64,000 nucleotides of DNA from Candidatus Shapirobacteria bacterium (GTDB lineage: Bacteria > Patescibacteriota > Microgenomatia > UBA12405), in NCBI GenBank assembly GCA_041665485.1, contig JBAYIT010000002.1, positions 197,867-261,866 of the forward strand, read 5' to 3'. The first letter of the stretch is position 1. Each line of letters begins with the position of its first letter. Below are positions 147 through 33,821 of this stretch, one piece after another. The notes beneath the pieces were generated by a model. The model was given only the letters and a program-made list of their open reading frames with translations. It was not told where the DNA came from and did no database searches. A program made the translations under genes and the position numbers.

Positions 147-917
147 TTATTGTATATAACCCAATGGATTAACCGCTCTCCAAGTATTTCCATCTTTAAT
201 ACGTATTTCGTAATGTACATGATCGCCGGTTGAAAAGCCGGTATCCCCCATAATTCCGACTGGTGTTCCTGATCTAACCATATTTCCATTTTCAACCAAA
301 GCCAAGCTGAAATGAATGTACTTTACTCTAAACGTATTATTTGTATTTGTTATTTCTACTGTTTCTCCCCCGTAGGTATCAATATAGTGATTAACACTAC
401 CACTAATCGTAGCAAATATAACGACTTTATGCGTTTCTTTATAAGTCAAGCTATTTTCATAATATGCTGAACTAGGAACAAGATCTATCGCTGGATGTTC
501 TTTCCCGTATTGGAGGTAGTAGCCGGGGTCCAAAAAATACGAGGTAATCGTAGTGTAAGACATACCACTACCACCAAAAGGGTTTTTCCTAGGTACTTGA
601 GTGTCTCCAAAACTAGAATCTGATGGAATGTTTGAGTTGTTTGAACCAAACACCGATGTAATGTTAGTTAAGATACTCGATCCTAAAATTACGGGTGACA
701 TAAAAATAGTGCCGATAACAGTAAGCATAAATAAGAAAAAGATAAGCAAAGTAACCAGTAAGGTAGCGATTGGCTTTTTAAACTGGGCTACCAGATCACC
801 GGCTAAAGGAAGTGGAATCAGTAAATTAACGATAAAAGCAATGATCTTATCTATAAAAAATCCAAAGGGATCATCTTTTATTCTATTTAGTTGCAGTGGG
901 AGTTTGGCAACTTTCAT
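147..917 (-). CDS. Membrane-anchored M23 (LytM-type) peptidase; probable cell-wall hydrolase of the adjacent T4SS-like cluster
   Basis: C-terminal GDTGFSTGDHVHYEI motif typical of peptidase M23; N-terminal hydrophobic helices; co-oriented and overlapping with the VirB4-like gene. Confidence 0.7.
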   Translation of the reverse strand: MKVAKLPLQLNRIKDDPFGFFIDKIIAFIVNLLIPLPLAGDLVAQFKKPIATLLVTLLIFFLFMLTVIGTIFMSPVILGSSILTNITSVFGSNNSNIPSDSSFGDTQVPRKNPFGGSGMSYTTITSYFLDPGYYLQYGKEHPAIDLVPSSAYYENSLTYKETHKVVIFATISGSVNHYIDTYGGETVEITNTNNTFRVKYIHFSLALVENGNMVRSGTPVGIMGDTGFSTGDHVHYEIRIKDGNTWRAVNPLGYIQ

Positions 918-3049
918 AACCCATTGTTTCCGCCATTAAATATTAAGGGTTCTTCAAAAGGCAGGACAACAATATTTAACCGGATATGCTCTTCCTCTCT
1001 GAATAAAACCACCTCGCCAATGTTGAGATACCCTAGTTGCTGTTTTTCATCATCAGTCATTGGATATATAGTTCCAATTTCTGAAAGAGCGGCATATGAT
1101 TGCTTAAGAAGAATTTTGGTTTCCGAGTTAGTAATAATTGCTTTACCGTATTCGTTATGTAAAAAGTCCTCCACATCTTGAGTCACAGAAATGACACCAA
1201 TATTGCGCTTCCTTGCTTGTTTGACTAATTCACGATAAAAGACGGCTACTTCTGGATCAATTAATAACTTATGAGCTTCATCAATAAATAATGCTCGTCT
1301 TCTGCCGTTGTGATTATTTACCAAATTCCAAATAAGAGAAGTTAATAAATACATTGCCGGATCTCGTTTTTCATCTTTTTTCAAATCGTGAAGATCAAGC
1401 ACAATAATGTCATTATCCAGCTCTAATCTTCTGGTTGAATTAAATACACCTCTTAAACTTCCACTGGATAAGACGCTTAAATCTTTTTGCATGGGATGAT
1501 CTCCCAGAAGATCAAGTAAATTTTCGAAGCTTGGGGTTCCGGCATCATATAGTTTAATTAACTTCTCATCAAGCAAAGCACTGTCAAAATGAGCTGGAGG
1601 AATAAAGAACTTGAAGAATGTTTTTAAAGTAGAAATATGATCTAAGATATCGTTTTCTTTTGAGCTATTAATATAAAAAGGATTGATGCCATTTTCTCTT
1701 GAAAACTGAATAACTTCACCGCCTAGAGCTTTAGCCAAATTTACATATTCCCCCTCAGGATCAATAGCTAGAATTTGAACTCCTCGCATATAAAGCCTAT
1801 TCATTAAAATCTTGGCAGTGACGCTTTTACCCGATCCTGAAACACCGAATATATTAACGTTATTATTTCTTGAGGTAAAAGGATCAATAAAAACTAAAGA
1901 GCTATTGTAGGCGTTTACTCCCATAAATATCCCGTTTGGATCTTGAAGTTGTTTGGAAACAAAAGGCATCAAATAAGAAGTCGCGGTTGATTGCAGAATT
2001 CTGTTTTCTTTTAGATGATCAGTGGCAAAGGGTAAAAAGTTTTTGTAGGCGGTTTTTTGACCGAAACTATAGCGGTTAAAAGTTAGATCCATTGATAAGC
2101 TTAAATCTTGGAGTTGTTTGTGAAGGAGGGATAATTCTTTTTCGTCCTTTGCTTCCAGTTGAAGATACAGTGAATAAATAATTCCTTTTTCTGCTTCATG
2201 AATTAATTCATCTACAAAACTGGATACCTCTTCGATATTTTTATCAATCTGTTGGTCACGGATTTTACCTAGCTTAAGTCGTTCGTTTTGTTGCATTTCC
2301 AAAACTGAAAGACGTTGTTTGGCCTTTTTGAGTAGTTCACTTGAAGGAGAGGGCTCAATAAAAATACTTAAAGTAAATGGAAGTGAAGAAGTCAGCAATC
2401 TAAAAAATATATATGGGCTAAGGTACGCCGGAATATCCGCCAGATAATAAAAGCTTTTTATCCTGTCGCCGGTTTGTACATAAGAATTGGTCTCTTTAAT
2501 ATATTCACTTTTATATGATCGGTTCTGTGTCTTTTCAACCATCAAAGTATCGATGTTTTTTTCTAAGGTCAGATGAAACTCTGATTTTCCGCTCTCTGCG
2601 ACAGCTTGTTTATAATTTTTTAACTCTTTTTGGAAATCTAAGTAATTTTTAATCAATTTAACTGGATTCTTATTTGGCCTAAGAGTAGGTCTGCGAATGT
2701 TGGAAATATCACTACTTAAGAAATTATCTTTTTTTATTATTTCCTCTTGACCGGCGACTATCTCCATTAGCCGTTTAACTTCTTCTTTTAAGGCCTCGGC
2801 AGTTGCATTTTTAGGGATATCGGATTGACCATTAAAAAATTCCTTTTCCGCTATTAGTAACCCTTCATTTTTCCTTTTTATTAGATTGTATTCCTGCTTC
2901 AATTTGGCAAGTTCTTCAATCTCGATATTTTTATCGTAGGAAAGATCGGTAATTTGTTCCTTTAATTTTTGGGTTAAACTAAAATTACGAATATATCTAT
3001 ATGTCCTAATAACTCGTTTATGGAATTTTTTTATCAGATTTGTTTTCAT
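914..3049 (-). CDS. VirB4/TrbE/CagE-family type IV secretion ATPase (C-terminal ATPase portion)
   Basis: Walker A GVSGSGKS followed by IDPEGEY; Walker B FIDEAHKLL; VTQDVEDF motif; size and neighbourhood fit. Confidence 0.75.
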   Translation of the reverse strand: MKTNLIKKFHKRVIRTYRYIRNFSLTQKLKEQITDLSYDKNIEIEELAKLKQEYNLIKRKNEGLLIAEKEFFNGQSDIPKNATAEALKEEVKRLMEIVAGQEEIIKKDNFLSSDISNIRRPTLRPNKNPVKLIKNYLDFQKELKNYKQAVAESGKSEFHLTLEKNIDTLMVEKTQNRSYKSEYIKETNSYVQTGDRIKSFYYLADIPAYLSPYIFFRLLTSSLPFTLSIFIEPSPSSELLKKAKQRLSVLEMQQNERLKLGKIRDQQIDKNIEEVSSFVDELIHEAEKGIIYSLYLQLEAKDEKELSLLHKQLQDLSLSMDLTFNRYSFGQKTAYKNFLPFATDHLKENRILQSTATSYLMPFVSKQLQDPNGIFMGVNAYNSSLVFIDPFTSRNNNVNIFGVSGSGKSVTAKILMNRLYMRGVQILAIDPEGEYVNLAKALGGEVIQFSRENGINPFYINSSKENDILDHISTLKTFFKFFIPPAHFDSALLDEKLIKLYDAGTPSFENLLDLLGDHPMQKDLSVLSSGSLRGVFNSTRRLELDNDIIVLDLHDLKKDEKRDPAMYLLTSLIWNLVNNHNGRRRALFIDEAHKLLIDPEVAVFYRELVKQARKRNIGVISVTQDVEDFLHNEYGKAIITNSETKILLKQSYAALSEIGTIYPMTDDEKQQLGYLNIGEVVLFREEEHIRLNIVVLPFEEPLIFNGGNNGL

Positions 3050-3858
3050 GGTCGTAAGGTAGAACTCATAAAGCGTATTAATTCTTGATTGACTAGTGGT
3101 TTGACCGTTATATTGCAGGCTGATAATGCTCCGGCAAAACTAATGCTTAAGTCGTTTAGCTTTTTAATTGCAATAGTAAACTCCGAAGTTTTTCTGGCAT
3201 TACAGCCCATGGATAACACCGCGTAATGGCGGGTAATAAATAAGGTGTCAGTACTTATGAATTTTGACAAATCATTGATATAACGGGTGATAAGGGATTC
3301 GCGGTTAAGTTTCGCCCCACCATAAAGTGAAAAGAAGTGTTTAGAATAATCCTTAATTTCGGCTTTTTCTTTTCGGACAATCAATTGTACCGGTGCAGGT
3401 AGTATATTTATCGCTTGTTTAAGTCTAATAAAGAAGTTTTCGCGATCTTGTTCGTTTAGCAAAGCTACATCAAATGGTTCAATCGCTAGCATTTTGACAA
3501 TACTGCCGTTTCTGACAATCAGATTATCCTGAATGGTAAAGTCAGTAAAATACGGCTCAATATCTTTGAAGCGTTTTTCTTTTCTTCCAGATTTAAAGGT
3601 AAGCAGGCGTGGTACAACTTTATAAATTGGCTGGTTATCAATATTTTGGGTAATAAAAGCGACAAAAAAGATGGTCGTTACAATCACCGATGAAATGTAA
3701 TAGCTCCACTGAAACAAGTGGAGAATATGGTGAAAAACTAAATATAAAGATATGGCTATGATTACAGTCCCAGCAATCACCAGAACAGAGTCTGTAAAAA
3801 ACAGACTTCGCAGTATATGAACCCTAATATCGTCTTTATATATTCTTACGTTTTTCAT
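3046..3858 (-). CDS. Membrane protein; possible VirB3 / VirB4 N-terminal domain-like component (split VirB4)
   Basis: Two N-terminal TM helices then a soluble domain; stop overlaps the start of the VirB4-like ATPase (atga), suggesting translational coupling. Confidence 0.35.
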   Translation of the reverse strand: MKNVRIYKDDIRVHILRSLFFTDSVLVIAGTVIIAISLYLVFHHILHLFQWSYYISSVIVTTIFFVAFITQNIDNQPIYKVVPRLLTFKSGRKEKRFKDIEPYFTDFTIQDNLIVRNGSIVKMLAIEPFDVALLNEQDRENFFIRLKQAINILPAPVQLIVRKEKAEIKDYSKHFFSLYGGAKLNRESLITRYINDLSKFISTDTLFITRHYAVLSMGCNARKTSEFTIAIKKLNDLSISFAGALSACNITVKPLVNQELIRFMSSTLRP

Positions 3859-5599
3859 AGTTTTTATGAGAATAAATCCTAATTATTGGATCAGTCCCTT
3901 TTTTAGCTTGACGCTCAACTATCACACCCGAAATACCATATGCTTGATTTCTGCTCTTTGCTATTTCCAAGAAATTTTTAACTCGGTGGGGTGGGCTAGC
4001 TTGATTGATAAAGGCATAATTAATTTCTTTACCCTGTCGTTTTGATTCTTCCATCGCATTAAAATTATGAGGGTTAGGGTTGTTTTTGCCAAAACTGGAG
4101 AGATCAATAAACTGCTCGTGATCAAAAGTCACTTTTTGCAGTTTATCTTCTGCTACGCCATCCTGTACTGCCTCTAATCTGGATGGATAGTATGAAACTA
4201 AAGCATTTTTCTTGTCTTCATATTTATACGCATCGCCGCTTACCGAAACTACTCCCTGCTTTGGGTTTTCTGTTTCTATCACAAATCCTTTACCTGTTAA
4301 ATTTTGAGAAAAAGGAGGAACGGTAACTTTTTCTTTACCTTGGGGATTTTGATTGTTACCCTTATTAAAGATGTTTGTTTTCTGATTCGAGTTGGTATTA
4401 TCGGAAGTTGCGGTTTGTTTACTATTATAATCACCACCCGAGTCTCTGTTTTGAAATAACGATCTGGTTTTATGTCCCAATTGACTGCTGATATTTCCAC
4501 CGATAAAGCCTCTGGAGAAATTACTAATGGGTGATGTTACCGCTTTAGATAATCCCCGATACGATATTGCTGCATACATGTTTCCAGACATAGCCGTCCA
4601 AACATCTCCAAACATTTTAGCCACCAGCACATTAACACTACCTAAAAAAAATAGGAAGCCGGTGTAAAAGAAAAGCATACCCACACTTGGACCTTTAGAA
4701 TTTAGAATGCTGGTAAAAATATCAGTAGCAATCGCAAACCCCAAAACAAAGGCAGGTTGCTCGATGAGAAAGGTAAACCACGATTTAAAAAAGGTATGCA
4801 CGATCCCTTCTGTTCGTTCTGACAGGGCAAAAGGGAGAATAATCGGATAAAGCACTCCCAAAAATAATAAAGAGGCGAAGCGAATTACAAACTGAAATCC
4901 TATGTAAATAAAGCCACATAGTAAAAAGACAAAGGTTAAAGCAAAAAGAAGAATTTGGACAATAAACTTACCAAGTGAATGGAAGATTCCACCCCGTAGC
5001 GAGATATCAAATGAGGGGATACCAAAAGTCTCTGACGGATTGTTATTTTCACTTATCGCTTCTTGAGATTTATTAAAGTAGTCATCTAAAAACCCGGTAA
5101 ACTTTTGGGTAGTTGAGATTTTATCAACCAAAAGATTGTTAAACTGGATACTGTAAGAAAGTACTGATGGTACGGTGACAAAAAGAACAATAACTATAAG
5201 TAAACGAACAAAAAAAGATTTTAGTTGTTGAGCATTATCAGAGCCGAGCTTTGTCATGGCAATACCGGCGATGATTATGGCAAGTATTGGGATAGCAATT
5301 TGATAGAACATATCTCTATATTTGGTAACTCCCGGAATTTCAGAGTTATCTTTTAGCTTGATGGTGTTAGCCAGCGGATCGGGAGTATAGAAAATAAAAC
5401 CACCTAAAAAGGAATCAAATCCGGCAATAAAGTTTTTTAGCAGTGAGATTATTGAAGACGGTTCGTTTTGAACAGTAAATTCATTTGTATACTGAATGAC
5501 GGGAGCAGGTGTTGGAGTCGGGGTTTCTTGAGCTAATACAATTTGTGAAGTTAAGAGAAAGGCAATTGTTGTAAAAGCGATTATTAATGCTATTTTCAT
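3836..5599 (-). CDS. Polytopic membrane protein with signal peptide; VirB6/TrbL-like candidate
   Basis: Signal peptide MKIALIIAFTTIAFLLTSQIVLA, PT-rich linker, multiple hydrophobic helices, C-terminal N/Q/S-rich tail; sits between pilin-like and VirB4-like genes. Confidence 0.4.
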   Translation of the reverse strand: MKIALIIAFTTIAFLLTSQIVLAQETPTPTPAPVIQYTNEFTVQNEPSSIISLLKNFIAGFDSFLGGFIFYTPDPLANTIKLKDNSEIPGVTKYRDMFYQIAIPILAIIIAGIAMTKLGSDNAQQLKSFFVRLLIVIVLFVTVPSVLSYSIQFNNLLVDKISTTQKFTGFLDDYFNKSQEAISENNNPSETFGIPSFDISLRGGIFHSLGKFIVQILLFALTFVFLLCGFIYIGFQFVIRFASLLFLGVLYPIILPFALSERTEGIVHTFFKSWFTFLIEQPAFVLGFAIATDIFTSILNSKGPSVGMLFFYTGFLFFLGSVNVLVAKMFGDVWTAMSGNMYAAISYRGLSKAVTSPISNFSRGFIGGNISSQLGHKTRSLFQNRDSGGDYNSKQTATSDNTNSNQKTNIFNKGNNQNPQGKEKVTVPPFSQNLTGKGFVIETENPKQGVVSVSGDAYKYEDKKNALVSYYPSRLEAVQDGVAEDKLQKVTFDHEQFIDLSSFGKNNPNPHNFNAMEESKRQGKEINYAFINQASPPHRVKNFLEIAKSRNQAYGISGVIVERQAKKGTDPIIRIYSHKNYEKRKNI

Positions 5600-5628
5600 A
5601 AGGCGGCAGAATGGACTTATGTTGGTCC

Positions 5629-5958
5629 TTAGTTAGTGCCACCGACAAACTGTTTCAAAATACTGGCCAAACTTGCCGCACCAAAGACTAGAAGACCTCC
5701 AATTAAAATATTAAAGATCCATCCTTTAAGTCGTGATTTTCTTTCGGTATCATCGCCACTGGCAATAAGAGCAATACCGAGTGCAGCAATTGAAAGCGCC
5801 ATAACAGGGAGTGAAAAATATTGAAGTGTTTTAACCACGCCCCATAACAACTGATCAAGACTAGTAAATTGGATGGGTTGAGCTGTATTATAAGCTGTAA
5901 TATCGTTTGCCATATTATTTGTGCGAATTATACTAAATAATATGAGGTATGTCAACAA
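5629..5958 (-). CDS. Small two-helix membrane protein; VirB2/TrbC pilin-like candidate
   Basis: 109 aa with two hydrophobic helices separated by a charged loop (SGDDTERKSRLK); first gene of the co-directional cluster. Confidence 0.4.
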   Translation of the reverse strand: MLTYLILFSIIRTNNMANDITAYNTAQPIQFTSLDQLLWGVVKTLQYFSLPVMALSIAALGIALIASGDDTERKSRLKGWIFNILIGGLLVFGAASLASILKQFVGGTN

Positions 5959-6089: not shown

Positions 6090-8117
6090 TTACTCGTATC
6101 TTAAGGCGTTAAGAGCAGAGATTTTGGTGGCCCGTCTGGCCGGATAAATACCGGTAATAATCCCGACCAAAAGTGAGAGAAAGATGATTACAAAAACAAA
6201 CGATAGTGGTAAATATGAGATATCGACAAACCCAATCCCTTTAAAGATCGAAAAAATGGAAATAACGATTCCGGCAAACTTGCCCAAGATAAATCCTAAA
6301 ATAATTCCCAAAATCCCTCCGAAAAATCCCATAATCATGGATTCTGTTAAAAATAATTCCTGTACCTCAGAAGATTTCATTCCCATTGCTTTCATTAACC
6401 CTACTTCTCGAGTTCGCTCCAGAAGCGATACGGTGAGGGTGTTAAACATGCCCAAAGCGGCTACTGACAAAGCTACCATACCCAGAAGCATCAAAAGAGT
6501 TCTGGCTGTCGCAAAAAGCGAGTTAATTTGTTCTACCGTATCGGCAACCGATCTGGTTACGTACCCCATAGCTTCAACTTGTTTTCTGACTTTGGGAAGG
6601 TCTGTCTGGTTATTAACCACTACTTTTACTTGTGAGTAGTTCGTAATTCCCAAAGTGCGAAGGTCAATAAAAGGCACGTAAAAAACCGGTGTTTTTTCCT
6701 CTGGCGTCACTCCAATGATGGTATATTCTGCTGGAGCCGATTCAATTTTTTGGGTGGGATCAGTCAGAAGATCGCCAACAACAACAAACGAAGCCGTAAA
6801 CTTTTTCCCGACTGCTTCACTTTCTTTTATCCCAAGAACCGATAACATGGCACGGTTGACCACCGCTTGCTTTCTTGCTTCAGCAGCTAATTCAATTGTT
6901 TTTGTTTCCGGGGTTGCAATAACGCCGGCTTCAGAGGCAATTTCTACCCAACCAACCATATCGTCAACTTTTTTACCTGAAGCAGTTGAGTTATTAGTCG
7001 TTACACCTAAAACCTGTGGTTCAGTCACATTTACACCAGAGATTTTTATATTTATCTCGGCAAAAAAGCCGGTCTTTTGCACCTGCTTATTATCCTCATC
7101 CCGTAAAACAACATATTTTCCCTCCTCACAATCTCCTTGTGTTTCTGAATCACATTTTTCCTCTTTCCAAAGAAGCACTGGCGCTTTGATCCATTTCCCC
7201 AATGATGATCCTTCTTCTGTATTGCCGAATTCACCTGCGCCGTAGTCTGATAAATAACTGTCACCCCAAACTTCTTCGCCCGCAGACGTTCCTTCAACAC
7301 GCTTGGTATACCCTAAAACCTTAGCGGTAGTTGATGGGTTTTCCCGCACCCTAATCCAGGAAGAAGCATCTACAGCATAGTCTAATTTCTGTATTGACTC
7401 ACCTTGTTTACCAATCCGGTTTTCCGTTGTTGCACCGGCCACCTGCCCGGTCTTTTCCAATAATTCTGCCGTCAGCTCATTGCTGTCAAAGATTTTTCCC
7501 TCAACTGGCTTGATGGCTGATTGTTGGAGGTAGTCGGTCGTCACTCCGTAAACTGCCATATCGGACTGCGAATTTTGATAGTTGACTCGGCCAACAACGG
7601 CAATCAAGGGTAGTGCCATGTTAATCGCCGATATATCTTTAAAGTTGGAAAGAGTTTTGTCGTCAATTTTTATTTTTCCTCCCGATTGAGTGGTTATATC
7701 GGCTTGTCTCATCTCCTCAAGTCGGGCCACCCGGGTAATCACCAGTTGTTGCAAACCATAACCAATGGATACCAAAAACACAATCGCTCCAATGCCAATC
7801 ATCATCCCGCCGATAGTAACTATAGTTCTCGTTTTTTTGGATTTCATATTTCGAACCGAAAGTTCAATCAGGTCAACTCTTGAAATCGTGTTGCTGCGAT
7901 GTTGGTCTAAAAGCTTTGTTGCTTTGACGTAAAATGATAGAAGTGGAGAGGTTAATCGTGCTTTTACGCCTTTGGGAAATAATTTCCAATTAGAAATCGT
8001 AATTATTCCATTTGCGGTCACATAAAGCATGATAAGCAAGGCAAACGTTACCGCATGCCACAAAGCACCGGTAAAGTTTAAAAAACTAAATTTAGATTTT
8101 GATTGGTAATTTTGCAT
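6090..8117 (-). CDS. MacB/FtsX-family ABC transporter permease with large extracytoplasmic domain (SH3b-like insert)
   Basis: N-terminal TM, roughly 400-aa periplasmic domain, C-terminal FtsX-type 3-TM bundle; paralog of 28705..30582. Confidence 0.75.
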   Translation of the reverse strand: MQNYQSKSKFSFLNFTGALWHAVTFALLIMLYVTANGIITISNWKLFPKGVKARLTSPLLSFYVKATKLLDQHRSNTISRVDLIELSVRNMKSKKTRTIVTIGGMMIGIGAIVFLVSIGYGLQQLVITRVARLEEMRQADITTQSGGKIKIDDKTLSNFKDISAINMALPLIAVVGRVNYQNSQSDMAVYGVTTDYLQQSAIKPVEGKIFDSNELTAELLEKTGQVAGATTENRIGKQGESIQKLDYAVDASSWIRVRENPSTTAKVLGYTKRVEGTSAGEEVWGDSYLSDYGAGEFGNTEEGSSLGKWIKAPVLLWKEEKCDSETQGDCEEGKYVVLRDEDNKQVQKTGFFAEINIKISGVNVTEPQVLGVTTNNSTASGKKVDDMVGWVEIASEAGVIATPETKTIELAAEARKQAVVNRAMLSVLGIKESEAVGKKFTASFVVVGDLLTDPTQKIESAPAEYTIIGVTPEEKTPVFYVPFIDLRTLGITNYSQVKVVVNNQTDLPKVRKQVEAMGYVTRSVADTVEQINSLFATARTLLMLLGMVALSVAALGMFNTLTVSLLERTREVGLMKAMGMKSSEVQELFLTESMIMGFFGGILGIILGFILGKFAGIVISIFSIFKGIGFVDISYLPLSFVFVIIFLSLLVGIITGIYPARRATKISALNALRYE

Positions 8118-8125: not shown

Positions 8126-8884
8126 TTACGCTTGGATTTTTAAATCTTTACCTCGCTTACTTTTAATTTCACTCATTAACTCTTTTTGGTCTTCCTTGTC
8201 ATAGACACCAACAACACTCCCGTTAAACATCTTTACCGCCGTAATGGCATACTTTAAATACTCTAAATCATGGGTGACCATCAAAATGGTTTTTTTGTGT
8301 TCTTTATTTAACTCCGTTAACAGTTTCATTAGTCCTTGTCCTGATTCATAATCCAAGTTTCCGGTTGGTTCATCAGCAATAATTACTTCAGGATTGGTAA
8401 CCAAGGCCCTAGCTAGTGCTACCCGCTGTTGTTGGCCGCTTGATAATTCAGTTGGGATGTACGTTGCCCAATTGATCATTTCCACCGTTTCCAATATAAC
8501 TCGGGCTTTTTCCAAACTATGAAAACGGTCAAGTCCCAAAAGCTGCAGGGGGAAGGCGACGTTTTCGACAACCGTAAGCGACCTAATCCAGTTTGGCTGT
8601 TGATAGACGATGCCGGTATGCTCTTTTCTAAAATCCGACCGGTCATCTTCGGTTAATCCATCGTAGAGATTTTTACCGGAAAAATACACACTTCCCTTAG
8701 TTGGTGCTTCCAGCCCCAGCATGGTATGTAACAGCGTTGACTTACCACAACCGGATGGGCCAAAAATAATGACAAAGTCACCACTTTTAATTTCCAAAGA
8801 AATATCTTTAAGTACCGGTACATCTTGGTCGCCGATATGGAACGACTTGGCCACATTTTGTATTTTAAAAAGATAATCATTCAT
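8126..8884 (-). CDS. ABC transporter ATP-binding protein (MacB/LolD-like)
   Basis: Walker A GPSGCGKST, signature LSGGQQQRVALARAL, Walker B IIADEPTGNLD, H-loop VTHD. Confidence 0.9.
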   Translation of the reverse strand: MNDYLFKIQNVAKSFHIGDQDVPVLKDISLEIKSGDFVIIFGPSGCGKSTLLHTMLGLEAPTKGSVYFSGKNLYDGLTEDDRSDFRKEHTGIVYQQPNWIRSLTVVENVAFPLQLLGLDRFHSLEKARVILETVEMINWATYIPTELSSGQQQRVALARALVTNPEVIIADEPTGNLDYESGQGLMKLLTELNKEHKKTILMVTHDLEYLKYAITAVKMFNGSVVGVYDKEDQKELMSEIKSKRGKDLKIQA

Positions 8885-8886: not shown

Positions 8887-11800
8887 TTATTTATTAGTTC
8901 CTCCCATAAATCCAAAGGCTTGCTGCAGGTTAGTAATCACCAGATTTAAAGCGTTATCGGTGGCCTTAGGTGTAATCGTTACCGTGTCAATTGAGTTGCC
9001 GACATTACCCACTTTGTCTTTGGAAGTTGACCGCACATGATAAACTTTTGCTGGCGTTAAGTTTGAAATTATTACCAAGTGGTTTATGGTCAAGTTAGTA
9101 TCTTCTTGCGTTTTTTGTGAGTAGGTTGTGCCGGTACCTTCGCCAAACTCTACTTGAGAAGTTGCCGGTTCATCCGTATTCCAGGATACGATTAGTTGGG
9201 CGGTTGATTCCTGGGCGGTTGAAGCGGTGGGTGGGATAGTTGCACCTTCAACATGAAGCTCTAAAACCTGCGGCGGTCTGGTATCGGTTGCTGTTGTCAG
9301 CCGCTGCGAATCAGAAGCAGCTTCGTTGCCGATTTTATCGCGCCCTCTTACCACCATAATATAATTTGTTTGGGGCAAAAGTCCGCGGATAATCATTCGG
9401 TGGTCACCTTTCGTTAAAGCGACATTAACTTCATCGCGGGCGTCAGCGGAATTACCCTCAGGATAGTAGGTGACAATTGAAGAGACTTCGGTGTTGGTAA
9501 TCCACGTCACTAAAAGAGTTGATTGAGCGGTGTTGGCTACTTGCTGAATCCTGACATTGCTAATTTTTGGCCTTGGTAGGGTAGTAAAGTCCAAGATTGT
9601 GCCTTCGTATTCGCTTGATTCGCTGTCAAAGGTATTGATTTTATAGTAATACTTTGTCCCATCCAAAAGTCCTGTGAGTTCGGCTGTGTAAGTGGTCTCA
9701 GTAGTTGAGGTTGAAATTTCTTTAGCTCCGCCAAAACTGGTGGTGGTGCCATAGTATATTTTGATTTTTGAGGCGTTGTTGGAAGTGAACTGGATAATAG
9801 CGGTAGTTAAACCAATGTTTTTAGCGCTGACGTCTTTAACGGTTGGCGCCGAAGAGGTAGAAAAGCTTTTTTCTTCACTGGCTCCAGTATTACCGTCTTC
9901 ATCTGTCCATTTGGTTTTATAGTAATAGGTTGTTCCCGGATTTAAGCCGGTCAACTGGATTGAATGCGAAGAAACCTGAGAGGAGTTGCTGGGCTCAACC
10001 GTATTATAACTACCGCTGGTTGTGCCGTACTGCACTTTGGAATCCGAGCTTCTGGAAGTTGTCCAGGTAATTGTGGCTTTTTTTGTGGTAATTGATCCGA
10101 CGTCTGGTCCGGTTGAGAGACTAGGGGCTGATGTCCATTTACCTGTAGGAGTGATTGAAACTGCATTAGATCCCGATGATTGGGCGTTAGCGCCGTCTTT
10201 GGCGTAAATCTTGTAGTAGTATTTGGCCGATGTAGGAGTGTTATCTACATAAGAAAGGCCCGAAGTTGTTCCGGTTTGAGCAAAAGTTGTGCCGTCAGTT
10301 GAGCGATAAACAAGATAGGTCAGATTTCCCGCACCTTTATAAGTTGGCGCCGTCCAAGTCAGGGTCACATTCCATTGGGATTGAGATTTAATCGAAGAAT
10401 CGGAAGCCACCAGATTCCCGGGATTGTCAGGATCAGTCGAGTCAAGAGTAAATGACGCCGAAATATAGTTTGAAGGCGAATAATTGGGAGTTGACGCATT
10501 ATCAATTGCCACAACATTGACGGTATTTGTGCCTTTGTTCACACCGGGCAAGGCTGCGGCCGAAACCGTTCGTGATGTTCCGTTGTCAATATAGGTAGTG
10601 GCGTTTCCTTGTAAAGTCGCCAAGGTTGAAGGCGGCGAAGTGTTGATCATATAATAATAATGGGCCACAGTTTTACCATTGGTCGGTGTTGCCTCTGGCC
10701 AGGATAAAGCATATGAATTAGAAGTTGAAGTTGATGGGGTTACGGTTACAGTCGCTAACCCGTCAAACGCCGGAGCTGCCCCGCCGTAATTGAGATTACA
10801 GGTTCGGATTGTCGCATCAGTTGAAATATTACCGGCAATATCGACTGTCCGGAAATAAATGATGTTATTGCCAGAATCAATTCCGTGCGGCAAACTATCA
10901 GACTTACCGTCCTGGGCCTGGGTTAATGTCCGCGAAGTGGCACTTGTGGGAACGTAATTATTGATACCAACCAGTGCTTCCGTGGTTGTCCCCAGCCATG
11001 TACCAGTTGTAGTATTAATCTGGTATTGCCAACCTAATATTCCCGATCCAACCACTTCGGTAACCGTATCAGAGGATGCCACGCTGTCAGTTGTCGGCCA
11101 GGAAAAGTTCATATCAGCAACATTGGAAAAACTACCCGAAGCGCAGGAAATATAGGCAGTATTTAAAGGCCGAGTATCGTCATACCTGAATTTAAAAGTA
11201 GCCGAGTTTCCGGCAAAAATATTACCTGATTTATCCACTACCTTGACAGCAAAAAGATAAGACTTAGGTGAGGTTGACAGAGGCGTTGTAAAATGACTTG
11301 CTAAATCAATACTGGTTCCGGTCACAATAAATTGGCAGGTCGTGCCGTCTGTTGGCACCGGACTGGTACTTAAAAGTCCCTTGGCTGTTGCCGGATCATT
11401 ATCTGGGATATCATCTCCGTTATTATCAAGGCTTAATGACAAACAATAGCCTTTAACTCCACTTTCGTTAGGATTATCGGCTCCGGCTGTCCAGGAAAAG
11501 TAAGGAGATGGGTTATTCGTCCAACCGTTTGAAGCCACCGTCGTTCCGCCGTTTGACCGAGACATTAAAATTGTAGAGGCATTACTTCCCCCGTTTGCAA
11601 CGTTTGGCGGGTTGGTGTCGGTGGTAAAACCAACTGATATATGAGGCAGTTTTGGTACATCAGCGCTTTCCGAGTTAAAAATAGCCTTAACTGAAATTTT
11701 ATGCGAAGTGGCAATAAGTGACGCATGTTGCATAATCGGGTTTTGTGCGTCCATTAGTTGTGCTGCCGTATTACCATCCGTTGCTCCGGCTACCACCCAA

Positions 11801-13767
11801 GAACTGCCGTTCCAATATTTCCAAGTGTTGCCGGACTCACAAGCTGTTCCCTGCCCGACACTTTTATTATCACTTCCAGCCGCGCCCAAATCATCGGTAC
11901 ATAATTGGTATTTGATGGTGGAGTTGCCAGTATGAGTGGCATCAGCCGTACAAACTGAACCAACCAGAGTTCCTTCACACAAATTGTCCCAGGTATTAAC
12001 CAGACCATTAAAATAACCGTCTTTATTGAAAACACTGTAGGTGCCTTGTTTTATCAAAGTCAGCTCATCAACTTTAACGGATTTGCCTCTTTTGACCAAA
12101 ACTCCGGCATCAACTGCGCTGTTAACACCGGTAACCGTGCCGGTTAATTTGTACCAGTTGCCGGTAACCGAAGTGTATGTGGGGCTGGTGATGGTGTTGC
12201 CGCCGTAATAAAGAGTAGCCACGGTGTCATCAACCACTCCACCAACCGGATCGGAACTCAAGTTATAGACATATGCTGAAATGGTGTAAGGAGCAGTATC
12301 GCCAACATTAACTGATTGATAGAGTTTGCCATCGACAATAGAGCCTATAGTAATTGTATTTCCACCGGCGCCGGGAAACCCGGAACTAGATGAGAAAGAT
12401 TGAGAGATTGCTACGGGACCACTGGCGCAGCGGAAACCAAGACTGTAGGCCGTACCCGTGGGCGCATAGATCAGATGCAAGGCGAACACACCCGCGCCCG
12501 TGGTATCGTTCCAAGCGCTGCCGCGTAAGAACGCGAAATTAGTGCCGTTTGTTCGAGCCCCCATATAATATTTACCCATGCCTTGAGCAGAGCCCCATGC
12601 AGTATTAGATGGCCTTAAAAGATCATAAGCTAAAGTACCGTAGTTACCGGCGCTGTTAAAGTACGGCCAATCAACATAAGCAGCAGTCTGAGCACTATCA
12701 GGTTTATTTTGTCCTAAAATTGAATCATTTGTCCACTCCCAGACGTTACCGGCCATATCCCAAATAATTTGTCCATTTGATAGAGTAAAAGTTCTTTTTT
12801 GTTTGCCTGAAGTATTATCGCAAACTGTTGCCCCTGTGGTTGTTTTATAACAGGCATAGGTGTCGTTGGTACTGGCATCAAGCGCCAGCCCCGTATCACC
12901 GTTTATGGCTTCGCTTACATTATCATTGTGGCCAGAGGCTAGCATGCCGGTTCCCGGCGTATTGCCGCATGGATAAACGCCATAACCGCCAACCGCAGTG
13001 CACCAGTTAGCGCTTTGACCTTCCGCATTGCGGGCAACTGTCATCCATTCGTTATTCGTAATCAGATGAGGGGCAGTAACTCCGACTCCCAATGACATAT
13101 TCGAACAGTAGCTTTCCGCATCGTTGGCGGTGCTGTCGTTTTGAGGAATATAGGCGATAGGAAAACCTTGGGCAGTTGAAACAACATGTTTTGCCCCAGT
13201 ACTATTACTACAGCTACATCCAGCTCCATTATTTCGGTACGTTCCGTATTGATCTCCCGTGCCATCTGCACCTGCCGAGCCATTACAGACATTACCTGAA
13301 GCGACCGTATTTCCCACATTGTCGCCGTCAGTGTCGCATTTGGCTTCATATTTCATTGCCAAAAAATTACCAGTAGGAGGATTATAGGTTGCGTTGGCGG
13401 GTACTTCTACCCAGCCGGAAGGGGGAACCGCGGCCACACTCCAAGAATCAGCATTATCTGTAAAGGCCGGATTAGCGAATTTATTAGCGCCAACTGTTCC
13501 GCCCGTTGGCTGTGCACCAGTATCATTAACCGTGGTTAAACTGGTCGTGTAGTCTGAAGCGGTCGCGCTTGAGAATGTCCATTCTTTTTTGCTGTCATTT
13601 AGGGCAAATACATTGGGAAATAGTTCTGATAAAGCCAGATAGGAACCGCCAAAAAGTCCGATTGTAATAAACAATATAGCCAACAGGTTAAACTGAAACC
13701 TGGAAAAATGAAATCGCGGCTCAAAGAAATACTTTTTAATGTTATGAATTAGGTTCATGTTGGTCAA
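8887..13767 (-). CDS. Giant (1626 aa) membrane-anchored surface protein: N-terminal signal-anchor, FGE-sulfatase/C-type-lectin-fold domain carrying the DGR variable region, long FN3/Ig-like repeat stalk; DGR target protein
   Basis: FGE/CLec motifs (NVWEWT, RGSAWN, GFRCAS); VR at codons about 411-450; C-terminal roughly 500 aa highly similar to the 23526..28031 protein. Confidence 0.8.
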   Translation of the reverse strand: MTNMNLIHNIKKYFFEPRFHFSRFQFNLLAILFITIGLFGGSYLALSELFPNVFALNDSKKEWTFSSATASDYTTSLTTVNDTGAQPTGGTVGANKFANPAFTDNADSWSVAAVPPSGWVEVPANATYNPPTGNFLAMKYEAKCDTDGDNVGNTVASGNVCNGSAGADGTGDQYGTYRNNGAGCSCSNSTGAKHVVSTAQGFPIAYIPQNDSTANDAESYCSNMSLGVGVTAPHLITNNEWMTVARNAEGQSANWCTAVGGYGVYPCGNTPGTGMLASGHNDNVSEAINGDTGLALDASTNDTYACYKTTTGATVCDNTSGKQKRTFTLSNGQIIWDMAGNVWEWTNDSILGQNKPDSAQTAAYVDWPYFNSAGNYGTLAYDLLRPSNTAWGSAQGMGKYYMGARTNGTNFAFLRGSAWNDTTGAGVFALHLIYAPTGTAYSLGFRCASGPVAISQSFSSSSGFPGAGGNTITIGSIVDGKLYQSVNVGDTAPYTISAYVYNLSSDPVGGVVDDTVATLYYGGNTITSPTYTSVTGNWYKLTGTVTGVNSAVDAGVLVKRGKSVKVDELTLIKQGTYSVFNKDGYFNGLVNTWDNLCEGTLVGSVCTADATHTGNSTIKYQLCTDDLGAAGSDNKSVGQGTACESGNTWKYWNGSSWVVAGATDGNTAAQLMDAQNPIMQHASLIATSHKISVKAIFNSESADVPKLPHISVGFTTDTNPPNVANGGSNASTILMSRSNGGTTVASNGWTNNPSPYFSWTAGADNPNESGVKGYCLSLSLDNNGDDIPDNDPATAKGLLSTSPVPTDGTTCQFIVTGTSIDLASHFTTPLSTSPKSYLFAVKVVDKSGNIFAGNSATFKFRYDDTRPLNTAYISCASGSFSNVADMNFSWPTTDSVASSDTVTEVVGSGILGWQYQINTTTGTWLGTTTEALVGINNYVPTSATSRTLTQAQDGKSDSLPHGIDSGNNIIYFRTVDIAGNISTDATIRTCNLNYGGAAPAFDGLATVTVTPSTSTSNSYALSWPEATPTNGKTVAHYYYMINTSPPSTLATLQGNATTYIDNGTSRTVSAAALPGVNKGTNTVNVVAIDNASTPNYSPSNYISASFTLDSTDPDNPGNLVASDSSIKSQSQWNVTLTWTAPTYKGAGNLTYLVYRSTDGTTFAQTGTTSGLSYVDNTPTSAKYYYKIYAKDGANAQSSGSNAVSITPTGKWTSAPSLSTGPDVGSITTKKATITWTTSRSSDSKVQYGTTSGSYNTVEPSNSSQVSSHSIQLTGLNPGTTYYYKTKWTDEDGNTGASEEKSFSTSSAPTVKDVSAKNIGLTTAIIQFTSNNASKIKIYYGTTTSFGGAKEISTSTTETTYTAELTGLLDGTKYYYKINTFDSESSEYEGTILDFTTLPRPKISNVRIQQVANTAQSTLLVTWITNTEVSSIVTYYPEGNSADARDEVNVALTKGDHRMIIRGLLPQTNYIMVVRGRDKIGNEAASDSQRLTTATDTRPPQVLELHVEGATIPPTASTAQESTAQLIVSWNTDEPATSQVEFGEGTGTTYSQKTQEDTNLTINHLVIISNLTPAKVYHVRSTSKDKVGNVGNSIDTVTITPKATDNALNLVITNLQQAFGFMGGTNK
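12364..12385 (-). promoter_or_regulatory. GC-rich hairpin (ggcgccgggaaacccgg) about 35 nt 3' of VR on the coding strand; candidate DGR target-recognition hairpin
   Basis: Stem ccggg/cccgg with aaa loop in otherwise AT-rich DNA; absent next to TR. Confidence 0.4.
12420..12535 (-). repeat. DGR variable repeat (VR), 116 bp, inside the giant surface protein gene
   Basis: 99 of 116 identity to TR at 15381..15496; all 17 mismatches are where TR has A on the coding (minus) strand; encodes ...APTGTAYSLGFRCAS. Confidence 0.85.
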
Positions 13768-15167: not shown

Positions 15168-15380
15168 ATTGATTCAACAAAAAGCGGGCCGGTTGTTAAG
15201 CCGGCCCACATACACTTAATCAGGTACCTATTTACCTTATCCCTGGTGTTTAATACAAGAATAAGAATACAGGCTTTATGTTCTCCCGCCATAAGCAGGA
15301 CAGAGAAAACCTGGTGATCGTTTGGACACCGAGTATATATCCTTGGACATATACCACTCCATCCTGGCGCATTATTTGGT

Positions 15381-21695: not shown

Positions 21696-21697
21696 AT

Positions 21698-33818: not shown

Positions 33819-33821
33819 ATA

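What the first reader, a model, noticed from the sequence alone, without database searches (positions are those of the whole stretch)
6090..8117. MacB/FtsX permeases with SH3b-like insert dedicated to a giant adhesin-like protein
Both permeases carry a large extracytoplasmic domain containing an SH3b-like segment (SWIRVRENPSTTAKVLGYTKRVEG... / ESWIKVRANPNTNSQILGYTKRVEG...). The copy linked to the DGR target has an extra acidic Cys-containing insertion (EEKCDSETQGDCEEGKYVVL). MacB-type mechanotransmission ABC systems coupled to a 1500-1600-aa surface protein suggest a dedicated export, anchoring or remodeling machine for the adhesin. This pairing is not a textbook system.
Basis: partly seen in the sequence, partly recalled or inferred. 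Interest (0 to 1): 0.55.

Follow-up and report, generated by a model that had tools for sequence, protein, structure and literature searches.

The report
ABC motor paired with giant fibre
In this ultrasmall Patescibacteria (candidate phyla radiation) bacterium, an ATP-driven membrane complex of the MacB/FtsX type, carrying an extra SH3-like domain on its outer face, is almost always encoded right after a giant surface fibre protein, which points to a conserved and apparently undescribed surface machine for displaying a host-recognition fibre.

Summary
Window 6090-8117 (minus strand) encodes a 675-aa MacB/FtsX-type (type VII ABC) permease. Its extracytoplasmic domain is about twice the usual size because a 133-aa all-beta module is inserted. 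That module folds confidently (pLDDT 93.5). By fold and by a 25-residue motif it resembles bacterial SH3b domains, but it fails the Pfam SH3_3 threshold.

A paralogue (62% identity) lies at 28705-30582. Each permease follows an ABC ATPase and a 1500-1626-aa FN3-rich protein.

The pairing is conserved. Of 56 related Patescibacteria loci with enough upstream DNA, 54 keep giant, ATPase and permease on one strand. The insert occurs almost only in this permease family.

One correction: the Cys-containing acidic loop is ancestral (at least 90% conserved). Copy B lost it.

The giant protein has four parts:
- a conserved leader with a cleavage-like site
- a swappable head, diversified by a DGR in copy A
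- a ~1000-aa stalk at 60-85% identity
- a near-invariant C-terminal amphipathic helix

My best reading is that the ABC complex is an extracytoplasmic base or actuator for the fibre, not its translocation channel. This mechanism is inferred, not shown. I found no description in the searched literature.

The parts
6090..8117 (-). Permease A, 675 aa, MacB/FtsX type (type VII ABC). Order of elements: a family-specific N-terminal extension of about 90 aa, TM1, an extracytoplasmic domain of about 400 aa, then TM2-4.
   Evidence: ORF and translation. Pfam FtsX and MacB_PCD above threshold. AlphaFold model pLDDT 75. Foldseek: MacB 5gko E = 3e-18, also LolCDE, YtrEF, HrtBA. Closest solved sequence is YtrF 9o9x, E = 7e-33.
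7020..7418 (-). SH3b-like all-beta insert, residues 234-366. It sits inside the membrane-distal (Sabre-type) part of the extracytoplasmic domain, between two low-confidence linkers (residues 216-233 and 362-400).
   Evidence: The domain model has pLDDT 93.5 and pTM 0.85. Foldseek top hits are SH3b domains but not significant. Pfam SH3_3 gives E = 0.57, and only for copy B. The insert profile hits 150 clusters among 1.84 billion proteins; nearly all have the length and insert position of this permease family (two Pfam-checked), the checked outliers are mainly SH3_3-repeat proteins, and some fragments and outliers were not checked. hhalign to those SH3 repeats gives 94.6% probability over 25 columns, but that test is circular. 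The MacB_PCD alignment breaks at profile position 142 of 207.
7107..7166 (-). Acidic two-cysteine loop EEKCDSETQGDCEEGKYVVL (residues 318-337) within the insert. A disulfide-stapled hairpin is inferred, not shown.
   Evidence: Present in copy A and absent in copy B. C322, D329, C330, E331 and G333 are at least 90% conserved in 63 homologues. The loop is lost in about 10 of 82 permeases.
8126..8884 (-). ABC ATPase A, 252 aa. It starts 2 nt after the giant A stop codon and ends 8 nt before the permease A start.
   Evidence: Pfam ABC_tran E = 7e-35. The best NCBIfam resemblances are LolD, DevA, FtsE and MacB NBD, all below their cut-offs. Walker A GPSGCGKST, signature LSSGQQQR, Walker B IIADEPT and H-loop VTHD are readable in the translation.
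8887..13767 (-). Giant protein A, 1626 aa. Order of elements: a conserved leader with a hydrophobic helix, a C-type-lectin/FGE-sulfatase head, a conserved FN3-like stalk of about 1000 aa, and a near-invariant C-terminal helix.
   Evidence: Translation. Pfam FGE-sulfatase, fn3 and Pur_ac_phosph_N x4. The C-terminal 976 aa are 59-85% identical to nearly all of the top 120 homologues, whose heads vary. Coverage profile. No PDB sequence match and no NCBIfam family.
13603..13767 (-). Giant A leader: the motif YFFEPRFHFSRFQFNL, a hydrophobic helix of about 20 aa, then SELFPNVFA. The last segment looks like a signal-peptidase I site ([IVL]-[FL]-A). Cleavage is inferred.
   Evidence: Aligned N-termini of 43 complete giants show two recurrent motif types and a shared P-x-[IV]-[FL]-A element just before the variable head.
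8890..8979 (-). Giant A C-terminal tail ...DTVTITPKATDNALNLVITNLQQAFGFMGGTNK, an amphipathic helix with heptad-like hydrophobic spacing.
   Evidence: It is nearly invariant across 43 giants from divergent lineages. Mean pairwise distance is 0.32, against 0.30 for permease TM2-4 and 0.45 for the ATPase.
12420..12535 (-). DGR variable region inside the lectin-fold head of giant A, at about residues 411-449.
   Evidence: Direct repeat with 15381-15496 at 86% identity. Within the repeat core, all mismatches fall on template adenines.
14010..15903 (-). DGR cassette: Avd (15562-15903), template repeat (15381-15496) and reverse transcriptase (14010-15167).
   Evidence: Pfam bAvd E = 1e-21. RVT_1 E = 6e-17. 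TR/VR alignment. The same Avd-RT-giant arrangement occurs in 15 related loci.
23526..28031 (+). Giant protein B, 1501 aa. It has the same stalk and tail as giant A but a different head (DUF2341) and a type-2 leader (KKITIARWQLNFF).
   Evidence: Translation. Pfam DUF2341, fn3 and Pur_ac_phosph_N. N- and C-terminal comparisons.
28035..28742 (+). ABC ATPase B, 235 aa. It starts 3 nt after the giant B stop codon.
   Evidence: Pfam ABC_tran E = 3e-31. NCBIfam profile resembles that of ATPase A.
28705..30582 (+). Permease B, 625 aa as listed; the probable ATG start is at 28732. It is a paralogue of permease A with a shortened SH3b-like insert (about 29344-29679) that lacks the Cys loop.
   Evidence: Translation. 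62% identity to permease A with two deletions in the insert. Pfam FtsX and MacB_PCD. The insert HMM matches residues 214-325.
914..5958 (-). Neighbouring type IV secretion genes downstream of cassette A: VirB2/TrbC-like (5629-5958), VirB6/TrbL-like (3836-5599), a 270-aa protein, and VirB4-like (914-3049). These are context, not part of the conserved three-gene core.
   Evidence: Pfam TrbC E = 5e-8, TrbL E = 8e-4, and TraG P-loop/AAA_10. The same T4SS genes follow the permease in only 7 other loci. A perfect sigma-70-type promoter match at 5955-5927 suggests a separate transcript.

Best explanation
The feature is one component of a conserved three-gene surface module of Patescibacteria, found in Microgenomates-type lineages, WWE3, WS6 and relatives. 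The module is giant fibre protein, then ABC ATPase, then MacB/FtsX-type permease.

Shown here:
- The permease is a type VII ABC membrane subunit.
- Its extracytoplasmic domain carries a flexibly tethered SH3b-like beta module that is almost exclusive to this family.
- It is co-encoded, tightly spaced and co-duplicated with the giant protein.
- The giant protein is modular: a conserved leader, an exchangeable and sometimes DGR-diversified head, a strongly conserved FN3-like stalk, and a near-invariant C-terminal amphipathic helix.

Inferred mechanism:
1. The giant protein crosses the membrane through Sec, N-terminus first, and the leader is probably cut at the conserved [IVL]-[FL]-A site.
2. 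The variable head ends up distal and the invariant C-terminal helix ends up next to the membrane.
3. The ABC complex does not translocate the giant, because MacB-type transporters have no transmembrane channel (review PMC5985334). Instead it acts from the outer face.
4. Its conserved core extracytoplasmic domain captures the fibre base. ATP hydrolysis in the cytoplasm drives movements of that domain (mechanotransmission) that load, hold, tension or release the fibre. FtsEX acts on EnvC or PcsB in a comparable way, and LolC recruits LolA.
5. The SH3b-like module most likely braces the complex on peptidoglycan or another variable wall ligand, rather than binding the invariant tail.
For: Family and fold:
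- Pfam FtsX and MacB_PCD above threshold.
- Foldseek MacB E = 3e-18, LolCDE, YtrEF. YtrF is the closest solved sequence at E = 7e-33.
- The ATPase motifs are intact.

Insert:
- pLDDT 93.5, with SH3b-dominated fold hits.
- The insert profile finds only 150 clusters among 1.84 billion proteins. Nearly all are permease-like in length and insert position, and most checked outliers are SH3_3-repeat hydrolases.
- The insert is present in all 82 permeases examined.

Dedicated pairing:
- 54 of 56 loci have a giant homologue upstream on the same strand, 49 in strict order, at permease identities down to about 50%.
- Spacers are 2-8 nt or the genes overlap.
- The whole cassette is duplicated in this window and in three other MAGs.
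- Natural NBD-permease fusions exist.

Giant protein anatomy:
- The stalk is about 60-85% identical across the top 120 homologues while the heads differ.
- The leader motifs and the cleavage-like site are conserved.
- The tail is nearly invariant. It is as conserved as permease TM2-4, and its distances co-vary most with the core extracytoplasmic domain (partial r 0.33-0.35 after controlling for the ATPase).

Head as ligand binder: the DGR cassette is confirmed with adenine-specific TR/VR mismatches and recurs in 15 loci.

Precedents for partner capture by FtsX-type extracytoplasmic domains: PMC7668044, PMC6355983, and PDB 8tzk and 8i6o among the hits.
Against: - No physical interaction was tested. 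Both structure-prediction jobs went on the permease, so no complex model exists.
- Conserved synteny shows functional linkage, not a mechanism.
- The mirror-tree signal is weak and confounded by shared phylogeny.
- Leader cleavage is inferred from a motif only. If the leader stays as an anchor, the proposed geometry changes.
- The invariant tail could equally mediate self-oligomerisation or wall binding.
- The SH3b assignment fails the independent Pfam test, and the hhalign support is circular.
- One locus (L028) has the ABC pair without a detectable giant, and in L050 the giant is on the opposite strand.
- The topology of the permease N-terminal extension is unresolved.
Confidence: 0.5

Rival explanations
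1. LolCDE-like extractor. The ABC complex grips the giant protein's conserved N-terminal hydrophobic helix laterally in the membrane. It uses ATP to pull the helix out, releasing the fibre to the wall or S-layer or presenting it to signal peptidase. This is the way LolCDE extracts the lipid anchor of lipoproteins.
For: The giant leader carries family-specific juxtamembrane motifs (RFHFSRFQFNL or KITIAKWQFNLF) and a conserved segment after the helix. The permease has its own family-specific N-terminal extension of similar design, an aromatic/basic motif followed by an F.LLL.LY helix. LolC and LolE are among the closest folds. MacB-type pumps are known to take substrates from the outer leaflet or periplasm (PMC5985334).
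Against: The permease N-terminal extension is the least conserved part of the protein (mean distance 0.73). The leader types do not map cleanly onto permease features. This model leaves the near-invariant C-terminal tail unexplained. There is no LolA-like acceptor and no outer membrane, and the LolCE model scores 73 bits against a cut-off of 362.
Confidence: 0.2
2. Wall-remodelling regulator. Like FtsEX, the ABC complex controls local peptidoglycan remodelling so that the very long fibre can be threaded through or fixed in the wall. The SH3b-like module is the peptidoglycan sensor, and the link to the giant protein is indirect.
For: SH3b domains are typically peptidoglycan-binding modules of wall hydrolases, which are the proteins recovered. 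FtsEX is the paradigm for a type VII ABC that regulates hydrolases (PMC7668044, PMC6355983). The insert evolves fast, as expected for a wall-chemistry reader.
Against: No hydrolase or coiled-coil activator gene is conserved in the cassette. The giant protein has no detectable catalytic domain, and the genes downstream are heterogeneous. FtsX models score 30-38 bits against cut-offs of 225-255.
Confidence: 0.15
3. Generic efflux or antimicrobial-peptide resistance pump, as in the automatic annotation, that merely sits beside a large surface-protein gene.
For: JGI names homologues 'ABC-type antimicrobial peptide transport system permease subunit'. MacB-family members include drug, peptide and heme exporters.
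Against: Synteny with the giant gene holds in 54 of 56 loci across deep lineages. The genes are tightly spaced and the cassette is co-duplicated. The family-exclusive insert and conservation matching the giant's stalk and tail also argue against it. No membrane-fusion or exit-duct partner was found among the neighbours scanned.
Confidence: 0.05

Closest known systems
MacB (MacAB-TolC) and the type VII ABC 'mechanotransmission' superfamily
   Same: Same overall architecture: an elbow helix, TM1, a Porter/Sabre-type extracytoplasmic domain, then TM2-4, with a separate or fused NBD. Best fold match 5gko, E = 3e-18. Pfam FtsX and MacB_PCD are met.
   Different: There is no membrane-fusion protein or TolC partner, and the host is a monoderm-type cell. 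The extracytoplasmic domain is about 400 aa instead of about 200 because of the SH3b-like insert. There is an extra N-terminal extension of about 90 aa. The MacB equivalog model scores 84 bits against a cut-off of 966. The genetic partner is a giant FN3 protein.
YtrEF of Bacillus subtilis (PDB 9o9x)
   Same: It is the closest solved sequence (E = 7e-33 over TM2-4) and a high-ranking fold hit. It is a monoderm MacB-type system without an outer-membrane partner.
   Different: The match covers only residues 499-675. YtrF (436 aa) has no SH3b-like insert. I know of no giant-protein partner for it. I found no paper on YtrEF function in the library.
FtsEX with EnvC, PcsB, CwlO or RipC
   Same: A type VII ABC that transports nothing and instead uses ATP to move an extracytoplasmic domain that grips a helical element of a partner protein (PMC7668044, PMC6355983). 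This is the best functional analogy for capture of the giant's C-terminal amphipathic helix.
   Different: FtsX models are far below cut-off (30-38 bits against 225-255). The FtsX extracytoplasmic domain is small and has a helical lobe rather than an SH3-like barrel. The partner here is a fibre of 1500-3000 aa with no hydrolase or activator domain.
LolCDE
   Same: Close fold (9rld, E = 5e-17). A partner-recruiting element is inserted in the extracytoplasmic domain (the LolC hook; from my own knowledge). It extracts a membrane-embedded anchor.
   Different: The TIGR02212 model scores 73 bits against 362. The permease gene is single, which suggests a homodimer rather than a LolC/LolE heterodimer. 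There is no outer membrane or LolA.
Bacterial SH3b wall-binding domains (lysostaphin, ALE-1, phage endolysins; Pfam SH3_3)
   Same: They dominate the fold hits: 2kt8 probability 0.89, 1r77, 5leo, 7aqh, and a BFVD 'SH3 domain protein' at E = 0.027. They share the W/L-R-V-R-x-x-P-S-x-x-x-x-[IV]-L-G-Y motif.
   Different: The insert is about 133 aa, roughly twice an SH3b domain, with extra hairpins and a two-Cys loop. The Pfam SH3_3 score is 10.8 bits against a threshold of 27. The domain is embedded in an ABC permease rather than in a hydrolase.
DGR-diversified C-type-lectin-fold receptor-binding proteins (Mtd/TvpA class)
   Same: Giant A's head is an FGE-sulfatase/CLec-fold domain whose variable region differs from the template repeat only at adenines, with Avd and RT adjacent.
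   Different: The variable region lies about 1170 residues from the C-terminus of a 1626-aa protein. The target is hard-wired to an ABC pair and, in a subset of genomes, to T4SS genes.

Membership tests
Type VII ABC / MacB-FtsX permease superfamily | C-terminal FtsX-type transmembrane bundle (Pfam PF02687) | tested here: met
   64.4 bits (copy A) and 72 bits (copy B) against a gathering score of 25.5.
Type VII ABC / MacB-FtsX permease superfamily | Large extracytoplasmic domain of MacB_PCD type between TM1 and TM2 | tested here: met
   54.4 and 43.4 bits against 27. The alignment is interrupted at profile position 142 of 207 by the insert. The predicted topology has helices 95-130 and 524-577 flanking a beta-rich domain.
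Type VII ABC / MacB-FtsX permease superfamily | Overall fold similar to solved MacB, LolC/E or FtsX structures | tested here: met
   Foldseek gives 56 PDB matches with E <= 0.001. The top ones are MacB, LolCDE, Spr0694-0695, YtrEF, HrtBA, YbbAP, BceAB and FtsEX.
Type VII ABC / MacB-FtsX permease superfamily | Cognate ABC ATPase with intact catalytic motifs, adjacent or fused | tested here: met
   ABC_tran E = 7e-35 and 3e-31. The catalytic motifs are readable. Fused NBD-permease homologues exist (P0053, P0063, P0080).
Type VII ABC / MacB-FtsX permease superfamily | Dimeric assembly and ATP-driven movement of the extracytoplasmic domain | not testable with these tools
   This needs a complex structure or biochemistry.
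MacB proper (macrolide/toxin exporter with MacA and TolC) | Equivalog-level sequence match, plus a membrane-fusion protein and an outer-membrane duct | tested here: not met
   NF007826 scores 84 bits against a cut-off of 966. No HlyD/MFP or TolC family was found among the cassette neighbours scanned.
LolCDE lipoprotein-release permease | Equivalog-level match to LolC/E | tested here: not met
   TIGR02212 scores 73 bits against 362; the LolC and LolE models score 36-41 bits against 439-540.
FtsX (cell-division FtsEX) | Equivalog-level match to the FtsX models | tested here: not met
   NF038347, NF038346 and TIGR00439 score 30-38 bits against cut-offs of 225-255.
Bacterial SH3b (Pfam SH3_3) | Sequence match to the family model | tested here: not met
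   Copy B gives E = 0.57 and 10.8 bits against 27, over 16 residues. Copy A gives no hit.
Bacterial SH3b (Pfam SH3_3) | SH3-type beta-barrel fold | tested here: inconclusive
   The model is confident (pLDDT 93.5). The top Foldseek hits are SH3b domains in both libraries, but the best E is 0.027 to 0.15 and TM-scores normalised by target are 0.36-0.55. The reverse profile hits to SH3_3-repeat proteins (E = 5e-10 summed over repeats) and hhalign at 94.6% over 25 columns are supportive. They were, however, selected by the query itself.
Diversity-generating retroelement (context of copy A) | RT, accessory Avd, a TR/VR pair with adenine-specific mismatches, and a CLec-fold target | tested here: met
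   RVT_1, bAvd, a 116-nt repeat at 86% identity, mismatches within the repeat core only at TR adenines, and FGE-sulfatase fold in the target.

The most novel reading that the evidence does not exclude
The module is an 'active adhesin'. A type VII ABC motor forms the membrane base of a giant host-recognition fibre with an exchangeable tip that is often diversified by a DGR. ATP hydrolysis mechanically loads, tensions, retracts or releases the fibre. In some Microgenomates the module works alongside the adjacent type IV secretion system to establish contact with host cells. This would be a new class of bacterial surface appendage that is anchored and powered by a mechanotransmission ABC complex rather than by sortase, a pilus machine or a secretion system.
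Probability: 0.25. Interest if true: 0.85.

Novelty: new variant of a known kind. Interest (0 to 1): 0.62.

Why it matters
Patescibacteria make up a large share of bacterial diversity and are thought to live attached to other cells. The molecules that mediate recognition and attachment outside the Saccharibacteria are almost unknown.

It is under strong purifying selection except at a swappable, sometimes hypermutated tip. It is linked in some genomes to a T4SS that is essential for epibiotic growth in a cultured relative (PMC10633639). That makes it a concrete candidate for a host-recognition apparatus.

For ABC-transporter biology, it would add a new output to the mechanotransmission family, which so far covers efflux, lipoprotein extraction and hydrolase activation. 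It would also be the first case of an SH3-like module built into the extracytoplasmic domain.

For DGR biology, it places a diversified lectin head on a defined, conserved, ATP-coupled scaffold.

Tried and rejected
1. A conserved fourth gene. The small ORF after the permease is VirB2-like only in the window and 5 loci. Elsewhere it is heterogeneous (CBS protein, GIY-YIG, response regulators and others). Rejected.

2. T4SS as part of the core module. VirB4 follows the permease in only 7 of about 56 loci. The recurrent gene set downstream in the L074 group turned out to be CBS, CHASE4-PAS, GroEL and PilB. Rejected as a general feature and kept as a subset association.

3. The insert as docking site for the giant's invariant tail. 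The insert is the most variable structured part of the extracytoplasmic domain and has the lowest partial correlation with the tail (0.08). Disfavoured, although the test is weak.

4. Correlation between leader type or head type and loss of the Cys loop or the permease N-terminus. No clean pattern emerged.

5. An extra transmembrane helix 'TM0'. The hydrophobic helix in the N-terminal extension is retained in NBD-fused forms, so a simple single-span topology is impossible there. Left unresolved.

6. Southlakia Tn-seq lead. The essential FN3 protein SEML1_0890 is a small unrelated protein next to glycosylation genes. I could not establish whether cultured Saccharibacteria carry the module.

7. 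Literature. Seven full-text searches and the papers I opened did not describe the pairing. The papers covered the CPR T4SS, the Pam pilus, Vampirococcus, Patescibacterium danicum, a Yanofskyibacterium parasitism study and a PNAS perspective.

8. Promoter and terminator scan of the cassette. Counts were at chance level apart from one perfect promoter before the VirB2-like gene.

9. Sequence search of giant A against PDB and NCBIfam. No hits.
Full report
WHAT IS THERE

The flagged interval, window 6090-8117, is a 675-aa ORF on the minus strand. A paralogue lies at 28705-30582 on the plus strand (625 aa). The two are 62% identical, and the differences are concentrated in two deletions in copy B.

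Both proteins pass the Pfam thresholds for the FtsX transmembrane bundle and the MacB periplasmic core domain. They score far below the curated cut-offs for MacB proper, LolC/E and FtsX.

An identical protein in public data is annotated as an FtsX-like permease of a Candidatus Shapirobacteria MAG. The rest of the window is ordinary chromosomal housekeeping: tRNA synthetases, TGT, PBP1 and RecG.

STRUCTURE OF THE PERMEASE

I built an AlphaFold model from 63 homologues (alignment A1). It has mean pLDDT 75. Its closest solved folds are MacB (5gko, E = 3e-18), LolCDE, Spr0694-0695, YtrEF, HrtBA, YbbAP and BceAB, with FtsEX more distant. By sequence the nearest solved protein is B. subtilis YtrF (E = 7e-33), but only over TM2-4.

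The extracytoplasmic domain spans about residues 131-523, roughly twice the length in MacB. The Pfam MacB_PCD alignment stops at profile position 142 of 207. In the model, two low-confidence linkers (216-233 and 362-400) bracket an all-beta block.

Modelled on its own with 33 homologues (alignment A2), that block (residues 234-366) gives pLDDT 93.5 and pTM 0.85. It is therefore a discrete, flexibly tethered domain inserted in the membrane-distal part of the extracytoplasmic domain. In LolC, the partner-recruiting element sits in the same region (my own knowledge).

IS THE INSERT SH3b-LIKE?

There are three lines of evidence, none decisive alone.

(i) Pfam SH3_3 gives only E = 0.57 on copy B and nothing on copy A. 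Family membership by the independent sequence model is not met.

(ii) Foldseek finds no significant match. However, the top of both lists is dominated by SH3b wall-binding domains: 2kt8, ALE-1, lysostaphin, the phage 2638A endolysin and PlySb in the PDB, and an 'SH3 domain protein' at E = 0.027 and probability 0.99 in BFVD.

(iii) A profile of the insert, searched against 1.84 billion representative proteins, finds only 150 clusters. Nearly all are proteins of 600-1000 aa with the match at about residues 220-400, the pattern of this permease family; two were confirmed by Pfam. Five of the seven multi-stretch outliers I checked (P0344 at 5e-10, P0346 at 4e-9, and others) are multi-repeat SH3_3 glucosaminidases, and the other two are unrelated. 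The SH3_3 proteins match the W-I-R-V-R-x-x-P-S-...-L-G-Y segment.

hhalign between the insert and those SH3 repeats gives 94.6% probability over 25 columns. That comparison is circular, because the query itself selected the repeats.

My conclusion is that the insert is an SH3b-like barrel, elaborated to about twice the normal size, and essentially private to this permease family.

THE CYS LOOP

The segment EEKCDSETQGDCEEGKYVVL is not a novelty of the DGR-linked copy. C322, D329, C330, E331 and G333 are at least 90% conserved in the family. Copy B and about nine other permeases have lost the loop. In this window and in two other MAGs with two cassettes, the Cys-less copy coexists with a Cys-bearing one.

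IS THE PAIRING WITH THE GIANT PROTEIN REAL?

In the window, each permease follows an ABC ATPase with intact catalytic motifs and a giant protein. Spacers are 2 nt, 8 nt and 3 nt, plus one overlap.

A scan of one genome per GTDB species returned at least 566 loci encoding a relative. I fetched the best 80 with 10-kb flanks. I then applied crude ORF calling and BLAST against the window proteins. Of 56 permease loci with at least 4.5 kb of upstream DNA:
- 54 have a homologue of the giant within the four upstream genes on the same strand.
- 49 of those are in strict giant-ATPase-permease order.
- L050 has the giant on the opposite strand.
- Only L028 lacks it.

The named records cover Woese-, Collier-, Davies-, Roizman-, Beckwith-, Pace- and Moran-bacteria, WWE3 and WS6. 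Permease identity to the query falls to about 50%. Three other MAGs, like this window, carry two complete cassettes.

ANATOMY OF THE GIANT PROTEIN

Homology across loci is confined to roughly the last 1000 residues. That region alone retrieves 120 homologues at about 60-85% identity, and their N-terminal heads differ: FGE-sulfatase/CLec, DUF2341, Laminin_G_3 and others.

The N-termini share a family-specific leader. It has an aromatic/basic motif of two main types (EPRFHFSRFQFNL or KKITIAKWQFNLF), then a hydrophobic helix of about 20 residues, then P-x-[IV]-[FL]-A immediately before the variable head. That last element fits a signal-peptidase I site.

The last ~45 residues (...SKVYHLRAISKDKAGN.GNSIDTVTITPKAT.NALNLVITNL.EAFGFLGG) are nearly invariant. 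Their mean pairwise distance of 0.32 equals that of permease TM2-4 (0.30) and is lower than that of the ATPase (0.45). The final 16-20 residues have the hydrophobic spacing of an amphipathic, groove-binding or coiled-coil helix.

Giant A has no sequence match in the PDB and no NCBIfam family. Pfam detects no catalytic domain in either giant.

THE HEAD AND THE DGR

Giant A's head is a genuine DGR target. Avd, a 116-nt template repeat and an RT lie upstream, and within the repeat core all TR/VR mismatches are at template adenines. The same Avd-RT-giant arrangement recurs in 15 related loci, and 15 of the 16 CLec-headed giants have it. This marks the head as an exposed ligand-binding tip.

WIDER CONTEXT

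Type IV secretion genes follow permease A: VirB2-like, VirB6-like and VirB4-like. The same is true in seven other loci, but not generally. A perfect promoter match precedes the VirB2-like gene.

A T4 coupling protein and a serine recombinase lie between the two inverted cassettes.

The recent survey of patescibacterial T4SS does not mention an ABC pair or giant proteins.

HOW IT PROBABLY WORKS

Established knowledge of the family says that MacB-type transporters have no transmembrane channel. They convert cytoplasmic ATP hydrolysis into movements of the extracytoplasmic domain (review PMC5985334). FtsEX uses this to grip and activate EnvC or PcsB through helical elements (PMC7668044, PMC6355983).

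Combining that with the anatomy above, my preferred model is as follows:
1. The giant protein is exported by Sec, N-terminus first.
2. The leader is cleaved, so the variable head ends up distal and the invariant C-terminal helix ends up at the membrane.
3. The ABC complex captures the fibre base with its conserved core extracytoplasmic domain.
4. It uses ATP to load, hold, tension or release the fibre.
5. The SH3b-like module braces the complex on peptidoglycan or another variable wall component.

The only test I could run on the interface was a mirror-tree comparison of 39 non-redundant cassettes. After controlling for ATPase distances, tail distances correlate best with the core extracytoplasmic domain (partial r 0.33-0.35) and least with the SH3b-like insert (0.08). 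This is weak and confounded by phylogeny.

Every step after 'the genes are a conserved unit' is inference.

RIVALS

- A LolCDE-like extractor of the leader helix. The conserved leader and the family-specific permease N-terminal extension favour it. It leaves the invariant tail unexplained.
- An FtsEX-like wall-remodelling regulator. The SH3b-like module fits, but no hydrolase is conserved in the cassette.
- A generic efflux pump beside an unrelated gene. The synteny, co-duplication and family-exclusive insert contradict this.

NOVELTY AND LIMITS

The components are of known kinds: a type VII ABC, an SH3-like barrel, an FN3 stalk and a DGR/CLec head. The combination has no description in the literature I could search: an SH3-like module inside a MacB-type extracytoplasmic domain, hard-wired to a giant modular fibre with conserved leader and tail. 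I rate it a new variant of a known kind.

No phyletic profile over complete genomes was possible. I could not determine whether any cultured patescibacterium carries the module.

Noticed in passing
window 14010-15903 with 12420-12535; loci L001-L006, L013, L014, L017, L019, L020, L024, L049, L057, L068: A complete DGR (Avd, TR, RT) targets the lectin-fold head of giant A. The same Avd-RT-giant-ATPase-permease arrangement recurs in 15 related loci, and 15 of 16 CLec-headed giants have it. The variable region lies about 1170 residues from the target's C-terminus, an unusual position for a DGR target.
   Followed up: yes
window 914-5958 (minus strand); L004, L006, L017, L049, L053, L057, L068: Type IV secretion genes (VirB2-like, VirB6-like, a 270-aa protein, VirB4-like) lie directly downstream of permease A and of the permease in seven other loci. 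The recent preprint on patescibacterial T4SS does not mention the neighbouring ABC pair or giant protein.
   Followed up: partly
window 5927-5955 (minus strand): A perfect 12/12 sigma-70-type promoter match (TTGACA, 17 nt, TATAAT) sits just upstream of the probable ATG of the VirB2-like gene. This suggests that the T4SS genes are transcribed separately from the ABC cassette.
   Followed up: no
window 18579-23230: A type IV coupling protein (889 aa, minus strand) and a large serine recombinase (510 aa, plus strand) lie between the two inverted cassettes. The same set of a 253-aa protein, T4CP and recombinase sits next to the cassette in L019. This hints at a mobile or invertible segment.
   Followed up: no
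window 7836-8117 (permease A residues 1-94); P0080 residues about 290-400: The permease family has an N-terminal extension of about 90 aa, with an aromatic/basic motif followed by a conserved hydrophobic helix (F.LLL.LY). Its design resembles the giant protein's own leader. It is retained in NBD-fused homologues, so it cannot be a simple single-span helix there. Its topology and role are unresolved.
   Followed up: partly
P0241, P0245, P0247, P0250, P0253 (proteins of 830-870 aa): Some family members match the SH3b-like insert profile in two separate stretches, which suggests a tandem duplication of the insert.
   Followed up: no
window 15184-15209 (minus strand): A GC-rich 9-bp hairpin followed by a T-run lies between the DGR template repeat and the RT start. 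It may be a structured element of the DGR RNA or an attenuator.
   Followed up: no
window 31572-34862 (minus strand): A 748-aa subtilase (Peptidase_S8) and a 346-aa AAA ATPase lie convergent to cassette B. I did not examine whether they are linked to the surface module.
   Followed up: no
L042, L047, L051, L056, L062, L066, L070, L074: One clade of giants of about 2060 aa ends in a shorter variant tail (...NALDLVITSLRSILGQ) that lacks the AFGFLGG end. Their permeases have long N-terminal extensions containing an FFRHSF motif.
   Followed up: partly
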